6,227 bases of DNA from Naegleria gruberi. Its lineage: Eukaryota. The stretch is from NCBI GenBank assembly GCA_000004985.1, contig GG739153.1. One strand, written 5' to 3'. A program made the position numbers and the translations under genes. Numbering within the stretch: the first letter of the stretch is position 1; each line of letters opens with the position of its first letter. Positions 1 through 6,227 of this stretch are shown one piece after another. The notes below the pieces were generated by a model. The model searched no databases. It was not told the DNA's origin and saw nothing but the letters and a program-made list of their open reading frames with translations.

Positions 1-97
1 GAAATTCATCCAATAAGAGAAAAAGAAATATGAAAGAAAATGGATCAAAGAAAAGAAAAGTTCAACAATCACCAAAGAAATTAATTACTCTGATAAT

Positions 98-475
98 TTG
101 AAAGAAATACTTCAAGAATATGAAATTAATGGTAAAATTGCTACGAAAATAAGAAATGATGATAAGGTAGCTCTCTATTTTAAACTTGATAATGGGTTTT
201 TAAAGATAATTCACTATTTTGATAATAGTTCAGAGAATGTGAAAGGCATGCAAATTATCAAATCCATTCAGCATGACAATATTAATCAGATTTTTCAATT
301 TAAGAAACTGTCCATAACTAGCTCACAATTAGATGAATTGTTTTTTGAAAACATTTCAGTTACAACCAAATCAGAACCAACAATATTTGATAGAGGATGG
401 ATTATCGTTGAGAATAAATTTCAACACTTCCACATAGGTTCCACAACAGTCAATCACTCGAACAGTATTCAATAA
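98..475 (+). CDS. Protein-kinase-like domain, N-lobe segment (partial). Reading frame 2 is open from position 14, with no in-frame ATG before residue ~50.
   Basis: Seen in sequence: the translation contains KVALYFKL (beta3-like, with the Lys replaced), ENVKGMQIIKSIQHDNINQIF (alphaC / HPN-like region) and a beta4-beta5-like stretch. This fits the N-lobe of the kinase fold whose C-lobe follows at 535-1164. The frame ends at TAA 473-475. Confidence 0.6.
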   Translation: MKEILQEYEINGKIATKIRNDDKVALYFKLDNGFLKIIHYFDNSSENVKGMQIIKSIQHDNINQIFQFKKLSITSSQLDELFFENISVTTKSEPTIFDRGWIIVENKFQHFHIGSTTVNHSNSIQ

Positions 476-534
476 CATTTTCACAATTTGTTGGTGATAT
501 TATTACTTTCATTATTTACCTGAACCAAAAAGAT

Positions 535-1164
535 TTGAATACCAAATTATTATGTTTTATCAAGTTAATGATGGATGCTATTGAAGCAGTTAATATATTA
601 CATGAAAATAATATTATTCATTGTGATATTTCAATTAGAAATGTTGGCATGTTATTTACAAAACATGTCATGACATCATATGCCAAAGAAAAAAGCTCAA
701 TATTGGAAGCATTGCCAAATGTTTCAAACTGTAATTTCATTTTGATTGATTTCAATCATTGTAAAGTGGAAGGACAAGAACAAGCAACATTGAACATTTT
801 TCCAGAATGTAATTTTAAAAAAGAAAATATTTTCTTTCCATTTATATCAGAGGCATACTATCCTACAGATGAATTGGTTCAATTTACAAAAGAACATGAT
901 TATTATAGTATTGCTTTAGTTTTGTCACAATTATTTTTGGCAATTGTTTGTAATGTTTCAATTTCTGAAATATTTAAATGGGAAAATGGAAATTTAAAAG
1001 AATCAGTATTGAGCGAACTCAATAAGAAAATGAAGGAATTTAATAATTTTGATGTGATTATTCAATTGTTGAAGGATGTTATTGAGAATGAGGGTAAATC
1101 TGACATTTGCAATTTCACCAAAACATTCAATTTACTATATGAAAATGTTATTCAACCCAATTAA
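535..1164 (+). CDS. Protein-kinase-like domain, C-lobe (catalytic-loop, DFG-like and subdomain IX motifs). Likely a pseudokinase or atypical kinase. Reading frame 1 is actually open from position 418.
   Basis: Seen in sequence: LHENNIIHCDISIRNV corresponds to the HRDLKPEN catalytic loop, with Arg replaced by Cys and Lys replaced by Ser. ILIDFNHCK corresponds to DFG, present as DFN. IFPEC corresponds to APE. DYYSIALVLSQLF corresponds to DxWSxG (subdomain IX). TAA stop at 1162-1164. Confidence 0.7.
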   Translation: MNTKLLCFIKLMMDAIEAVNILHENNIIHCDISIRNVGMLFTKHVMTSYAKEKSSILEALPNVSNCNFILIDFNHCKVEGQEQATLNIFPECNFKKENIFFPFISEAYYPTDELVQFTKEHDYYSIALVLSQLFLAIVCNVSISEIFKWENGNLKESVLSELNKKMKEFNNFDVIIQLLKDVIENEGKSDICNFTKTFNLLYENVIQPN

Positions 1165-2733: not shown

Positions 2734-2748
2734 CACTGAAAAACATAC

Positions 2749-2803
2749 CAAACAAAGAAGACATCAGTTCCTGGATATGAAAGAGGTCTCAATCTGTCAT
2801 AAT
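2749..2803 (-). CDS. Rac-like GTPase exon 3: (D)YDRLRPLSYPGTDVFFV plus TG of a Cys codon. It is followed by a GTATGT donor at 2748-2743 and then the assembly gap.
   Basis: DYDRLRPLSYPGTDVF matches the Rho-family consensus DYDRLRPLSYPQTDVF. Splicing at TG|GTATGT gives the conserved Cys of the FLICFS motif, whereas read-through gives VWYVFQ. The remainder of the gene must lie in the N-run. Confidence 0.8.
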
Positions 2804-2852
2804 CTAGTCAATTGTCAAATTGTCACAATTATTAACAACAATTTCAACATAC
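2804..2852 (-). other. Spliceosomal intron 2 of the Rac-like gene, 49 nt, GTATGT...TAG.
   Basis: Removing it joins G|AT to give Asp and restores DYDRLRPLSYP directly after WDTAGQE, exactly as in Rac1/Cdc42/RhoA. The unspliced read-through hits stops. Confidence 0.85.
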
Positions 2853-2919
2853 CTTCTTGACCAGCAGTATCCCACAATCCAACATTATAATTTCTATTTC
2901 CATATGTCACATTAGCACT
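2853..2919 (-). CDS. Rac-like GTPase exon 2: [22 protein letters not shown], plus the first nucleotide of an Asp codon.
   Basis: Switch II / G3 motif WDTAGQE. It aligns to Rac1 [22 protein letters not shown] at the same length. The exon ends in phase 1 at a GTATGT donor. Confidence 0.9.
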
Positions 2920-2956
2920 CTTCCGAAATCAATTTAACTGTCATCAAATTACTTAC
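2920..2956 (-). other. Spliceosomal intron 1 of the Rac-like gene, 37 nt, GTAAGT...AAG.
   Basis: Reading through shifts the frame and hits TAA. Removing these 37 nt joins DNY to SANV exactly as in Rac1 (DNYSANV). The donor is the canonical GTAAGT. Confidence 0.8.
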
Positions 2957-3079
2957 GTAATTGTCAAAAACTGTTGGAACATAATCTTCGGGAAATGAAT
3001 TTGTGGTGGAGGCAATCAAAAGACAACTCTTTCCGACGGCGCCATCACCAACAACTACCAATTTCAAGCTATTGTCCAT
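2957..3079 (-). CDS. Rac-like Rho-family small GTPase, exon 1 (ATG at 3079-3077): [41 protein letters not shown].
   Basis: Hand translation of the reverse complement. P-loop GDGAVGKS (G1), effector region YVPTVFDNY and TTNSFP align without gaps to Rac1 [36 protein letters not shown]. The exon ends in phase 0 at a GTAAGT donor. Confidence 0.9.
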
Positions 3080-3659
3080 TATTATGTACACGTTGATGTG
3101 AGTTTGTTATTTTTTTTTGATTTTGTTTTCAAAGTACCATTGAACAAGGAACTCTTACAAAAATTTGATTAATGATTACTTTATTCAGATTTAAGATCAT
3201 AATTAAAATTCAAAAACAACTTTATTGGTAGGATAGTTTGTAAACTTCAATTTCTTCAACTTTTGCATTTCAACAAACTTTAAAAAAAATAGTCAACATT
3301 CTTCTACTCTAGGAGGACATGATGATTTTCGGAGTGGTTTTACATCATGAAACTACCAAACTTTCACAGCATCACATCAACATCATCTAAATAGTAGTAA
3401 TAGTAATAATTGTTTTTGGTGGATTATCATCATCATTTTGGAATTTATTTTTCATGATGGAAAATCACATGTTGGTGTTTAATCATCCGATCATTCACCT
3501 ACCATCATCAATGTTGTTTTACATTAAAATAATAATAGTATTTGTGGAAATTAATTTTTAGCAATATAATTTTGGAGTCCTTCTGAGTTCCAAATTTCTT
3601 CCTTTGTGGTAACAATTAATCAAAACTCAAACAAAATACCTTTAACTCTTCATCATATT

Positions 3660-5144
3660 NNNNNNNNNNNNNNNNNNNNNNNNNNNNNNNNNNNNNNNNN
3701 NNNNNNNNNNNNNNNNNNNNNNNNNNNNNNNNNNNNNNNNNNNNNNNNNNNNNNNNNNNNNNNNNNNNNNNNNNNNNNNNNNNNNNNNNNNNNNNNNNNN
3801 NNNNNNNNNNNNNNNNNNNNNNNNNNNNNNNNNNNNNNNNNNNNNNNNNNNNNNNNNNNNNNNNNNNNNNNNNNNNNNNNNNNNNNNNNNNNNNNNNNNN
3901 NNNNNNNNNNNNNNNNNNNNNNNNNNNNNNNNNNNNNNNNNNNNNNNNNNNNNNNNNNNNNNNNNNNNNNNNNNNNNNNNNNNNNNNNNNNNNNNNNNNN
4001 NNNNNNNNNNNNNNNNNNNNNNNNNNNNNNNNNNNNNNNNNNNNNNNNNNNNNNNNNNNNNNNNNNNNNNNNNNNNNNNNNNNNNNNNNNNNNNNNNNNN
4101 NNNNNNNNNNNNNNNNNNNNNNNNNNNNNNNNNNNNNNNNNNNNNNNNNNNNNNNNNNNNNNNNNNNNNNNNNNNNNNNNNNNNNNNNNNNNNNNNNNNN
4201 NNNNNNNNNNNNNNNNNNNNNNNNNNNNNNNNNNNNNNNNNNNNNNNNNNNNNNNNNNNNNNNNNNNNNNNNNNNNNNNNNNNNNNNNNNNNNNNNNNNN
4301 NNNNNNNNNNNNNNNNNNNNNNNNNNNNNNNNNNNNNNNNNNNNNNNNNNNNNNNNNNNNNNNNNNNNNNNNNNNNNNNNNNNNNNNNNNNNNNNNNNNN
4401 NNNNNNNNNNNNNNNNNNNNNNNNNNNNNNNNNNNNNNNNNNNNNNNNNNNNNNNNNNNNNNNNNNNNNNNNNNNNNNNNNNNNNNNNNNNNNNNNNNNN
4501 NNNNNNNNNNNNNNNNNNNNNNNNNNNNNNNNNNNNNNNNNNNNNNNNNNNNNNNNNNNNNNNNNNNNNNNNNNNNNNNNNNNNNNNNNNNNNNNNNNNN
4601 NNNNNNNNNNNNNNNNNNNNNNNNNNNNNNNNNNNNNNNNNNNNNNNNNNNNNNNNNNNNNNNNNNNNNNNNNNNNNNNNNNNNNNNNNNNNNNNNNNNN
4701 NNNNNNNNNNNNNNNNNNNNNNNNNNNNNNNNNNNNNNNNNNNNNNNNNNNNNNNNNNNNNNNNNNNNNNNNNNNNNNNNNNNNNNNNNNNNNNNNNNNN
4801 NNNNNNNNNNNNNNNNNNNNNNNNNNNNNNNNNNNNNNNNNNNNNNNNNNNNNNNNNNNNNNNNNNNNNNNNNNNNNNNNNNNNNNNNNNNNNNNNNNNN
4901 NNNNNNNNNNNNNNNNNNNNNNNNNNNNNNNNNNNNNNNNNNNNNNNNNNNNNNNNNNNNNNNNNNNNNNNNNNNNNNNNNNNNNNNNNNNNNNNNNNNN
5001 NNNNNNNNNNNNNNNNNNNNNNNNNNNNNNNNNNNNNNNNNNNNNNNNNNNNNNNNNNNNNNNNNNNNNNNNNNNNNNNNNNNNNNNNNNNNNNNNNNNN
5101 NNNNNNNNNNNNNNNNNNNNNNNNNNNNNNNNNNNNNNNNNNNN
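3660..5144. other. Assembly gap (N-run, 1485 nt).
   Basis: Continuous N. The flanking ORFs on the track are X-run artefacts. Confidence 0.95.
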
Positions 5145-5870
5145 ATCAATTGGGACAGTAGCTTGGCAGATATTCCAATTATATAGATATTAATTTCTAC
5201 CACTCAAATACGTTATCAATATCAATTATAAGAGTAGTGGTATGATATTCTATCTTGTAGCACATCTTGATATTGACTTGTCATATTGCCATGAGTAATA
5301 GCTGACATGGTTGAATGACATGAATATTGAATGATGTCAAAATGATATGAAATTGATAGGAGCCTCATCATATGATGTTAATAACATATGGTATCAATTT
5401 GGTAATGAATCTCATTGTCCTTAGGGTACTTCCCTATTGAGGTACCTTAATTGACTATCTCAATATTTAATATTTAATATGATATTTATTTCAGTTCTAT
5501 CATGTTATATATGTAATTTGAAGCATTTTGATATCATTTTTGATATTTAAATATGATTTATTAGATATTATATACAGCTACTCTTAGTTTTTCAAAATTG
5601 ACTTTGAGATTCCCTAATTGACCATATATATATGACCAATTGATGAAACTAATATCAATCGACTAGATTTTCAATTGTGAACACAATGGTATCAATAGTT
5701 ATATGATTCATGATAGTTTAAAATTGAGTTGGTCATCGGTCATTAAGGTTTGAATGAATTGATATGAAATTCAATACCAATTATTGAAATACCATGATAA
5801 ATTGATCTATATATGATGCTATAATTGAAAGATTTGAAAATTAATATGACTTGATTATCTTGACATTTAT

Positions 5871-5892
5871 AGGGTTTGGGGGTTGGGGTTGG
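5871..5892 (+). repeat. Telomere-like G/T-rich block AGGGTTTGGGGGTTGGGGTTGG.
   Basis: Seen in sequence: G-runs of 3, 5, 4 and 2 separated by TT/TTT, embedded in otherwise AT-rich DNA. It shares its first 10 nt (AGGGTTTGGG) with the block at 6044. Confidence 0.6.
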
Positions 5893-6043
5893 ATTAGAGT
5901 TGTTTTGATTTGTTACTTCGGTGGCACCATGGTCTTTATGATCTAATATAGAGTCTTTAAGTGATCTTGGGCTTTTGGAAAGGTTTTTCAGTAAAGTTTT
6001 AAAAAAAGTATATAATTTCTATCTAGATATCGAGATTTGGTGT

Positions 6044-6068
6044 AGGGTTTGGGTTGGTGGGGTTTGGG
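6044..6068 (+). repeat. Second telomere-like G/T-rich block AGGGTTTGGGTTGGTGGGGTTTGGG; a canonical G4 motif (GGG-N3-GGG-N5-GGGG-N3-GGG).
   Basis: Seen in sequence: four G-runs of at least 3 nt with loops of 7 nt or less. It begins with the same AGGGTTTGGG as the first block, about 170 bp away. Confidence 0.6.
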
Positions 6069-6227
6069 TGAGTTTTATACACTTTCATACAATAGAGTGA
6101 TATTGAAATGTACCCTTTGATATTTCTGGATGGGTAGTATGATTTGGTGATGATTCCGACAATAAAAATCATATATTGTTCATATAATTATCAAGATATT
6201 GTATAATTTATTAAATATAAAGTGGGT

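What the first reader, a model, noticed from the sequence alone, without database searches (positions are those of the whole stretch)
5871..6068. Two interstitial telomere-like G/T-rich blocks; the second is a canonical G-quadruplex motif
AGGGTTTGGGGGTTGGGGTTGG (5871-5892) and AGGGTTTGGGTTGGTGGGGTTTGGG (6044-6068) stand out sharply from roughly 70% A+T surroundings. They share an identical 10-nt start and resemble G3T3/G4T2/TTTAGGG-type telomeric repeats. The DNA between and after them is strongly G+T-skewed with few C. Single TTAGGG (5421-5426) and CCCTAA (5603-5608) hexamers also occur upstream. Possible explanations are an interstitial telomeric sequence, a subtelomeric location, a healed chromosome break, or a G4 regulatory or origin element.
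Basis: seen in the sequence. Interest (0 to 1): 0.5.

Follow-up and report, generated by a model that had tools for sequence, protein, structure and literature searches.

The report
Telomere-like G/T tracts flanking a repeat
Two short G/T-rich blocks in a small Naegleria gruberi scaffold are degenerate copies of the amoeba's predicted telomere repeat (TTTGGG) that sit on either side of a ~160-base dispersed repeat: an ordinary interstitial or subtelomere-type telomere-like sequence, not a working telomere or a shown regulatory element.

Summary
Both blocks are at the stated coordinates and share TAGGGTTTGGG (11 nt). They are the only strong G4Hunter peaks, and only block 2 is a canonical G3+N1-7 motif. 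The window is a whole 6,227-bp scaffold of Naegleria gruberi NEG-M. The only published, in-silico telomere candidate for this species is TTTGGG, and GGGTTTGGG occurs three times in the blocks (P~5e-5 against letter shuffles).

The blocks are irregular (G2-5T1-3), 22-25 nt long, not an array and not at the scaffold end. The single TTAGGG/CCCTAA hexamers are at chance level, and one coordinate was wrong.

New finding: the 162 nt between the blocks is a dispersed repeat. A metagenome contig (L121) carries two inverted copies, 98.7% and 94% identical to the window copy. Each has a shorter G/T tract (GGGTTTGG, AGGGTTGGGTTTGG) at the same end, and the flanks are unrelated.

The blocks are therefore variable telomere-like tracts attached to a repeat family. 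They could be a target-site duplication or element tail, or relic telomere seeds in a subtelomeric mosaic. Coding, known RNA families, tandem duplication and a decayed long array were tested and not supported. G4 function is untested.

Verdict: a new member of a known kind, of low to moderate interest.

The parts
5870..5892 (+). G/T block 1, TAGGGTTTGGGGGTTGGGGTTGG. Units are G3T3, G5T2, G4T2, G2. Its last ~10 nt (TTGGGGTTGG) align with the G/T tract that precedes the repeat body in both L121 copies.
5870..5880 (+). First copy of the 11-nt direct repeat TAGGGTTTGGG. It could be a target-site duplication or the shared start of two telomere-like seeds.
5884..6044 (+). Dispersed repeat 'body' of ~160 nt. 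It is 98% identical over 162 aligned positions to L121 1227-1388 (reverse strand), and 151/153 (98.7%) over the body columns. Window 5880-5977 is 94% identical to L121 1428-1526. The flanks are not homologous.
6043..6053 (+). Second copy of the 11-nt direct repeat TAGGGTTTGGG.
6043..6070 (+). G/T block 2. The G/T-only run is 6045-6070 and the canonical G-quadruplex motif GGGTTTGGGTTGGTGGGGTTTGGG is 6045-6068. Homology with L121 stops exactly where this block begins. L121 has a T-rich G/T tract (TTTGTTGTTTGCGTTGTTATTTGG) at that position instead.
6221..6227 (+). The scaffold ends in AGTGGGT, 177 nt after the start of block 2. This could be the start of a third G/T tract, but it is too short to judge.
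   Evidence: read directly

Best explanation
The two blocks are short, degenerate, same-orientation copies of the Naegleria gruberi-type telomeric repeat (TTTGGG and G4T2-like variants). They bracket one copy of a ~160-nt dispersed repeat in non-coding, A+T-rich DNA, close to the end of a tiny unplaced scaffold. In this repeat family a G/T telomere-like tract of variable length (8, 14 or 22 nt) always sits at the same end of the element, and a G/T-only tract also follows the other end.

The most likely history (inferred) is one of two. In the first, the element, which carries or primes on a telomere-like tail, inserted into a pre-existing telomere-like tract and duplicated TAGGGTTTGGG. In the second, sequence was added repeatedly onto short telomere seeds, as in subtelomeric mosaics. 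In both cases the tracts are by-products of telomere-repeat biology and repeat-element turnover.

The G-quadruplex potential of block 2 follows from that sequence. It is not evidence for a dedicated regulatory element.

Shown: the tracts are real and non-random; they match the predicted telomere unit; they are attached to a dispersed repeat; there is no coding or known RNA signal. Inferred: a telomeric origin, the insertion or addition mechanism, and a subtelomeric location.
For: Organism: the Rac exons are 100% identical to XP_002668306.1 of N. gruberi NEG-M, whose contig is 6227 bp long.

Telomere candidate: TTTGGG for N. gruberi (PMC3622300). Pure (TTTGGG)n arrays do cap contigs of A+T-rich eukaryotes in metagenomes (L014, L021, L112, L117).

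Non-randomness: there are 3 GGGTTTGGG in 47 nt, P=5e-5 against shuffles of the same letters. No shuffle of the window reproduces the matches.

Dispersed repeat: phmmer of the minus-strand open frame hit P0124 (E 8.6e-10), a spurious ORF on contig L121. By blastn, the 162 nt between the blocks is 98% identical to one arm of L121 (151/153, 98.7%, over the body columns) and 94% identical to the other. Flanks are unrelated, and the G/T tracts GGGTTTGG and AGGGTTGGGTTTGG abut the same end of the body.

Target-site duplication: the 11-nt direct repeat lies at both borders of the body in the window.

Orientation: both tracts have the G strand running 5'->3' towards the nearer scaffold end.
Against: The N. 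gruberi telomere repeat is only an in-silico candidate, and I could not inspect real N. gruberi chromosome ends.

The tracts are irregular. Block 1 fits G4T2 at least as well as G3T3, and there is no array.

The scaffold does not end in repeats; 159 nt of unrelated sequence follow block 2.

The complete L121 copy shows no target-site duplication, and its far border is T-rich rather than G-rich.

Only three copies of the repeat were available, two of them on one metagenome contig of unproven origin.

The scaffold is 28% G+C against about 35% for the genome (PMC6831594), so contamination cannot be fully excluded.
Confidence: 0.6

Rival explanations
1. The tracts are generic G/T-rich microsatellite or low-complexity tails of a small mobile element (SINE, MITE or foldback type). 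They have no historical link to telomeres, and the resemblance to TTTGGG is coincidental.
For: The units are irregular. Tract length varies among copies: 8, 14 and 22 nt. The far border in L121 is a T-rich G/T tract, not a G3 repeat. L121 shows a foldback-like inverted pair. No terminal array is present.
Against: GGGTTTGGG is enriched (P=5e-5) relative to random arrangements of the same G/T letters. All three element-borne tracts contain GGGTT(T)GG, which is the predicted telomere unit of this species.
Confidence: 0.22
2. The tracts form a functional G-quadruplex element on the + strand (transcription, replication-origin or recombination signal) that is kept by selection.
For: G4Hunter scores are 1.96 and 1.88, and block 2 is a canonical motif. 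The ViennaRNA G-quadruplex term gives -8.4 kcal/mol for block 2, and no ordinary hairpin competes with it.
Against: Block 1 lacks a fourth G3 run and scores only -1.4 kcal/mol. In the L121 copies the tracts are shortened to 8 and 14 nt, and the block 2 position is replaced by a G-poor tract. G4 capacity is therefore not conserved while the body is 94-98.7% conserved. No gene or open frame with homologues lies next to the tracts.
Confidence: 0.07
3. The region is coding on the minus strand. The blocks would encode Pro/Thr/Asn-rich peptide (…NSNPTPTPKPY…, …PNPTNPNPTPN…), possibly as exons.
For: A 91-codon stop-free frame runs through 5746-6018 (-), the longest in this contig. It gave a phmmer hit at E 8.6e-10.
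Against: The hit (P0124) is an artefact. Its ORF reads TGA as sense, follows the window in two different frames, and then continues into the opposite strand of the same repeat. The second hit is a low-complexity Thr/Pro/Ser protein. There is no start codon, and the two blocks fall in different frames.
Confidence: 0.03
4. The minus strand carries a telomerase RNA gene. CCCAAACCC, present twice, is exactly 1.5 copies of the complement of TTTGGG, as expected for a template.
For: CCCAAACCC lies at the 3' side of both reverse-complemented blocks. The minus strand of 5871-6068 folds slightly better than shuffles (z -2.3). No telomerase RNA came up for Naegleria in the literature searches run here.
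Against: No Rfam telomerase family matches, even at E 10. The sequence is a multi-copy dispersed repeat with a variable 'template'. The C/A runs of 22-25 nt are far longer than a template. A T7 run interrupts the minus strand between the two sites. The prior for any one GGGTTTGGG site is very low.
Confidence: 0.01

Closest known systems
Short interstitial telomeric sequences (short ITS), known from vertebrate, plant and protist genomes
   Same: A few units of the species' telomere repeat sit at an internal site in a head-to-tail orientation. PMC3622300 states that most genomes with terminal candidate repeats also have short internal stretches.
   Different: The units here are irregular (G2-5T1-3) rather than exact. 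The two tracts are physically tied to the borders of a dispersed repeat, whereas classical short ITS are usually isolated insertions (from my own knowledge).
Subtelomeric mosaics with internal telomere-repeat tracts, e.g. the TG1-3 tracts between X and Y' elements in Saccharomyces cerevisiae (from my own knowledge)
   Same: Short degenerate telomere tracts, all with the G strand pointing outwards, separate blocks of repeated subtelomeric sequence.
   Different: No terminal array or chromosome end is shown here. Only one repeat unit is seen, and the sequence after block 2 is unrelated to it.
Telomere-associated or telomere-targeting retroelements: endonuclease-deficient Penelope-like elements (Athena, Coprina, Terminons) and Bombyx TRAS/SART (from my own knowledge)
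   Same: The order on the G strand is G-tract, then element (sense on the C strand, with a 3' tail complementary to the telomere repeat), then G-tract. Tail length varies between copies.
   Different: No reverse transcriptase or any other ORF is present. The element is only ~160 nt. Both complete copies end at the same position, so it is not a random 5' truncation. Membership was not demonstrated.
Canonical putative quadruplex sequence (G3+N1-7)x4
   Same: 6045-6068 fits the motif, with G4Hunter 1.88.
   Different: Block 1 does not fit. G4 capacity is not kept in the other copies of the repeat.
Plant telo-box (AAACCCTA) promoter motif (from my own knowledge)
   Same: Both blocks start with TAGGGTTT, the reverse complement of AAACCCTA.
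   Different: No adjacent gene is seen. The telo-box is a plant motif with no known role in Heterolobosea, so this is a resemblance only.

Membership tests
Functional telomere | Tandem array of many repeat units | tested here: not met
   At most 1.5 perfect TTTGGG units occur in a row. The tracts are 22-28 nt. Tandem Repeats Finder reports no array there.
Functional telomere | Located at the physical end of the molecule | tested here: not met
   159 nt of unrelated sequence follow block 2. The scaffold ends in ...AAAGTGGGT. Whether the scaffold end is near a chromosome end cannot be tested with these tools.
Functional telomere | G-rich strand runs 5'->3' towards the end | tested here: met
   Both tracts are G-rich on the + strand and lie 159-357 nt from the right-hand scaffold end.
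Interstitial telomeric sequence | The sequence matches the species' own telomere repeat | tested here: met
   The species is N. gruberi and its candidate repeat is TTTGGG (PMC3622300). There are three GGGTTTGGG, P=5e-5. Caveat: the repeat is an in-silico candidate only.
Interstitial telomeric sequence | Internal position, flanked by non-telomeric DNA on both sides | tested here: met
Canonical G-quadruplex motif | Four runs of at least 3 G separated by loops of 1-7 nt | tested here: met
   Met for 6045-6068 only. Block 1 has three such runs plus GG.
Canonical G-quadruplex motif | Quadruplex forms in vitro or in vivo | not testable with these tools
   Only predictions are available: G4Hunter 1.88 and 1.96, and the ViennaRNA gquad term of -8.4 and -1.4 kcal/mol.
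Transposable element / dispersed repeat | Several copies with unrelated flanks | tested here: met
   There are three copies: one in the window and two in L121, at 94-98.7% identity. Flanks are not homologous.
Transposable element / dispersed repeat | Target-site duplication at the borders | tested here: inconclusive
   An 11-nt direct repeat TAGGGTTTGGG flanks the body in the window. No comparable duplication is seen around the complete L121 copy.
Telomere-associated retroelement (EN-deficient Penelope-like, TRAS/SART type) | Encodes, or derives from an element that encodes, a reverse transcriptase | tested here: not met
   No ORF with homologues lies in 5145-6227. A parent element could not be searched for.
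Telomerase RNA | Match to a known telomerase RNA family or structure | tested here: not met
   Rfam 15 gives no telomerase family hit on either strand at E up to 10.

The most novel reading that the evidence does not exclude
The ~160-nt repeat is a small non-autonomous element, or the 3' end of a larger retroelement. Its C-strand transcript would end in a tail complementary to the telomere repeat, and it would add itself onto telomere-like G tracts or eroded chromosome ends. That would produce the order G-tract, element, G-tract seen here. It would be the first view of subtelomere architecture and of a telomere-targeting element in Heterolobosea.
Probability: 0.15. Interest if true: 0.5.

Novelty: new member of a known kind. 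Interest (0 to 1): 0.22.

Why it matters
Naegleria telomeres have never been characterised experimentally. The only statement in the literature is an in-silico TTTGGG candidate. This locus gives a concrete and cheap handle: a 162-nt repeat with telomere-like tracts at its borders. That repeat can be used as a probe or BLAST query to locate chromosome ends, subtelomeric repeats or a telomere-associated element in Naegleria assemblies. If it turns out to be only an internal repeat with a G/T tail, the locus is routine genome texture.

Tried and rejected
- **Tandem duplication of a 173-nt unit.** The sequence after block 1 and the sequence after block 2 are not significantly alike (global z 1.3, local z 1.0). 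TRF finds no such period.
- **Decayed long telomere array between or after the blocks.** Telomeric 5-mers are 3-5 times denser there, but base composition explains this (P 0.22 and 0.13).
- **About 175-nt periodicity across the last contig.** With the blocks masked, the 165-185 lag band has 33 6-mer matches against 14-38 in other bands. This is not significant.
- **Coding on the minus strand.** The only hit is a spurious ORF that reads through TGA.
- **Known RNA families and tRNAs.** None were found. RNA folding gives z 0.77 on the + strand and -2.3 on the - strand.
- **More copies elsewhere.** The exact 25-mer of block 2 has 0 matches in metagenome contigs. A 28-mer of the body has 0 matches in GTDB genomes and IMG/VR.
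- **Identifying the organism behind the (TTTGGG)n-capped metagenome contigs.** The aim was independent support for the Naegleria telomere. Only three unnamed hits came back.
- **Extended homology between window 5145-5870 and L121 1-1226.** It is not significant beyond short shared motifs. Homology about 40 nt upstream of block 1 is weak (P 0.019).
- **Other checks.** The bacterial promoter/terminator scan is irrelevant for a eukaryote. The look-up of encoding contigs had no record for the N. gruberi protein. The Cell 2010 genome paper and the supplement of PMC3622300 are not held.

Full report
**What the window is.** The 6,227 bases consist of three short contigs (1-1303, 2734-3659, 5145-6227) joined by two runs of N (1304-2733 and 3660-5144). 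On the minus strand, three exons encode a Rac/Rho GTPase: 2957-3079, 2854-2919 and 2751-2803, with introns of 37 and 49 nt. The assembled peptide is 100% identical to 'rho family small GTPase [Naegleria gruberi]' (EFC35562.1 / XP_002668306.1, strain NEG-M), whose only contig is 6,227 bp long. The window is therefore one complete, tiny, unplaced scaffold of the N. gruberi draft genome, and its ends are scaffold ends. Its non-N part is 28% G+C, against about 35% quoted for the genome (PMC6831594).

**Check of the observation.**
- The shared start is 11 nt, TAGGGTTTGGG, at 5870-5880 and 6043-6053.
- They are the only long G/T-only runs with many G (5872-5892 and 6045-6070).
- They are the only strong G4Hunter peaks (1.96 and 1.88; the next best is 0.88).
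- Only 6045-6068 satisfies the G3+N1-7 x4 rule. Block 1 has three G3+ runs and a GG.
- GGGTTTGGG with at most one mismatch occurs five times, all inside the blocks, against 0.31 expected from dinucleotide shuffles.
- The 11-mer with up to two mismatches occurs four times against 0.35 expected.

Minor corrections are needed. CCCTAA lies at 5612-5617, not 5603-5608. One TTAGGG plus one CCCTAA is what chance gives (33 of 200 shuffles reach two). The G+T excess is 64% between the blocks but only 57% after block 2, against 54% upstream.

**Relation to the telomere of this organism.** The literature held here contains one statement on Naegleria telomeres. A genome-wide in-silico survey proposed TTTGGG as the candidate telomeric repeat of N. 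gruberi, judged from the position and orientation of repeat stretches. It noted that experimental confirmation is lacking and that most genomes with terminal repeats also carry short internal stretches (PMC3622300). Other searches found no competing claim.

The blocks contain GGGTTTGGG three times. If the letters of each block are shuffled, this count is reached with P=5e-5. The tracts are therefore not merely G/T-rich; they are built on the predicted telomere unit. They are also irregular:
- Block 1 reads G3T3-G5T2-G4T2-G2.
- Block 2 reads G3T3-G3T2-G2T-G4T3-G3.

Real TTTGGG telomeres look different. A scan of metagenome contigs for (TTTGGG)4 returned contigs that end in long, pure arrays with the G strand running to the contig end (L014, L112, L117 and L021). 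I could not show that these come from heteroloboseans. In the window, the G strand of both blocks points to the right-hand scaffold end, which is the correct polarity for a nearby telomere. However, 159 nt of unrelated sequence follow block 2, and the scaffold ends in ...AAAGTGGGT, not in an array.

**The new structural fact.** To test whether the region codes on the minus strand, I searched the longest stop-free frame (5746-6018, minus strand, 91 codons) against 1.84 billion protein representatives.
- One hit (P0124, E 8.6e-10) sits on a 1,526-bp ENA metagenome contig (L121).
- P0124 is not a real protein. It reads TGA as sense, and it follows the window first in one frame and then in another. 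It then continues into the translation of the opposite strand of the same sequence.
- At the DNA level, L121 1227-1388 is 98% identical over 162 aligned positions to the reverse complement of window 5884-6044, and 151/153 (98.7%) over the body columns.
- L121 1428-1526, which runs to the end of the contig, is 94% identical to window 5880-5977.
- The two L121 copies form an inverted pair around a 39-nt spacer.
- Outside this ~160-nt 'body' the flanks are unrelated.

In all three copies a G/T tract abuts the same end of the body:

| Copy | G/T tract at the body's start |
|---|---|
| Window | TAGGGTTTGGGGGTTGGGGTTGG |
| L121, second arm | AGGGTTGGGTTTGG |
| L121, first arm | GGGTTTGG |

At the other end, homology stops exactly where block 2 begins. 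L121 has the G/T-only but G-poor tract TTTGTTGTTTGCGTTGTTATTTGG at that position instead.

**What this implies.** Two histories fit.
- **(a) Insertion.** The element, which carries or primes on a telomere-like tail, inserted into a single pre-existing telomere-like tract (...ACATTTA-TAGGGTTTGGG-TTGGTGGGGTTTGGG...) and duplicated 11 nt. Read on the minus strand, this gives the classical order: duplication, element, C/A tail, duplication.
- **(b) Terminal addition.** The locus is part of a subtelomeric mosaic in which short telomere seeds, all with the G strand outwards, separate added blocks of sequence. Yeast X-Y' junctions and arrays of telomere-attaching retroelements are built this way (from my own knowledge).

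I cannot choose between them. The complete L121 copy has no clear duplication, the element has no ORF, and only three copies were available. Both histories make the tracts a by-product of telomere-repeat and repeat-element dynamics.

**Rivals tested.**
- **Tandem 173-nt duplication.** Not supported; the bodies after block 1 and after block 2 are unrelated (z 1.3).
- **Decayed long telomere array.** Not supported beyond base composition.
- **Coding.** Rejected for the reasons given above for P0124.
- **Known RNAs.** No Rfam family, including the telomerase RNA families, matches at E up to 10, and there is no tRNA. RNA folding is unremarkable on the + strand (z 0.77) and weakly better than shuffles on the - strand (z -2.3).
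- **Selected G-quadruplex element.** Block 2 is predicted to fold (gquad term -8.4 kcal/mol, with no competing hairpin). However, G4 capacity is not conserved in the other copies, although the body is 94-98.7% conserved, and no gene lies next to it.
- **Telomerase RNA template.** CCCAAACCC occurs twice on the minus strand, which is formally possible as a template. This reading is very unlikely for a multi-copy repeat with variable 'templates'.

**Comparison with what is known, and verdict.** The tracts meet the definition of short interstitial telomere-like sequences. They match the species' candidate repeat and are flanked by non-telomeric DNA. They fail the tests for a functional telomere because there is no array and no terminal position. 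Block 2 meets the formal G4 motif and block 1 does not. The body meets the 'several copies with unrelated flanks' test for a dispersed repeat, while the target-site duplication test is inconclusive. Membership in a telomere-associated retroelement family is not shown.

This is a new instance of a known kind of feature. Its added value is the link to a specific 160-nt repeat, which could serve as a probe for Naegleria chromosome ends. Interest is low to moderate. The most novel reading still open is a telomere-targeting element that defines subtelomere architecture in Heterolobosea, at about 15%.

Noticed in passing
window 17-472 and 418-1161 (+): Two overlapping open frames of a kinase-like orphan with HCDISIRN and DFN motifs. 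Pfam Pkinase scores E 0.016 and Pkinase_fungal E 3.9e-4, both below the curated cut-offs. There is no homologue among 5.8 billion proteins. The two frames need an intron or a frameshift near 420-475. It is not annotated in the public record.
   Followed up: partly
window 1065-1133 (-) and 2751-3079 (-): The annotated protein XP_002668306.1 (105 aa) looks chimeric. Genuine Rac exons (introns of 37 and 49 nt) are joined across the 1,430-nt N gap to 23 residues (KLNVLVKLQMSDLPSFSITSFNN) read from the antisense strand of the kinase-like frame.
   Followed up: yes
window 5388-5398 and 5686-5696; L121 332-384 and 699-707: The 11-mer ATGGTATCAAT recurs. TGAAATTGATA-N26-CATATGGTATCAATTT is collinear in window 5348-5400 and L121 332-384. 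Window 5145-5870 and L121 1-1226 share 18 11-mers against 2.6 expected, without a significant extended alignment.
   Followed up: partly
L121 1227-1526 (ENA ERZ929261, PRJEB11402, contig k127_444230): An inverted pair of the 160-nt repeat surrounds a 39-nt spacer, with the telomere-like tracts facing each other at the centre (CCAAACCC ... AGGGTTGGGTTTGG). The only gene called on it (P0124) is an artefact that reads TGA as sense.
   Followed up: yes
L014 4-87, L112 1919-2000, L117 6465-6571 (all WGS JAESGV01); L021 6040-6141: These metagenome contigs of A+T-rich eukaryotes end in long pure (TTTGGG)n arrays in telomere orientation. A flippase fragment from L014 found only three unnamed relatives, so the organism is unknown.
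   Followed up: partly
window 5437-5466 and 5604-5633: A 30-nt direct repeat (77% identical) has a spacing of 167 nt, close to the 173-nt spacing of the G/T blocks. There is a weak, non-significant excess of 6-mer matches at lags 165-185 across the last contig.
   Followed up: partly
window 6221-6227: The scaffold ends in AGTGGGT, 177 nt after the start of block 2. This could be the first bases of another G/T tract cut off by the end of the assembly.
   Followed up: no
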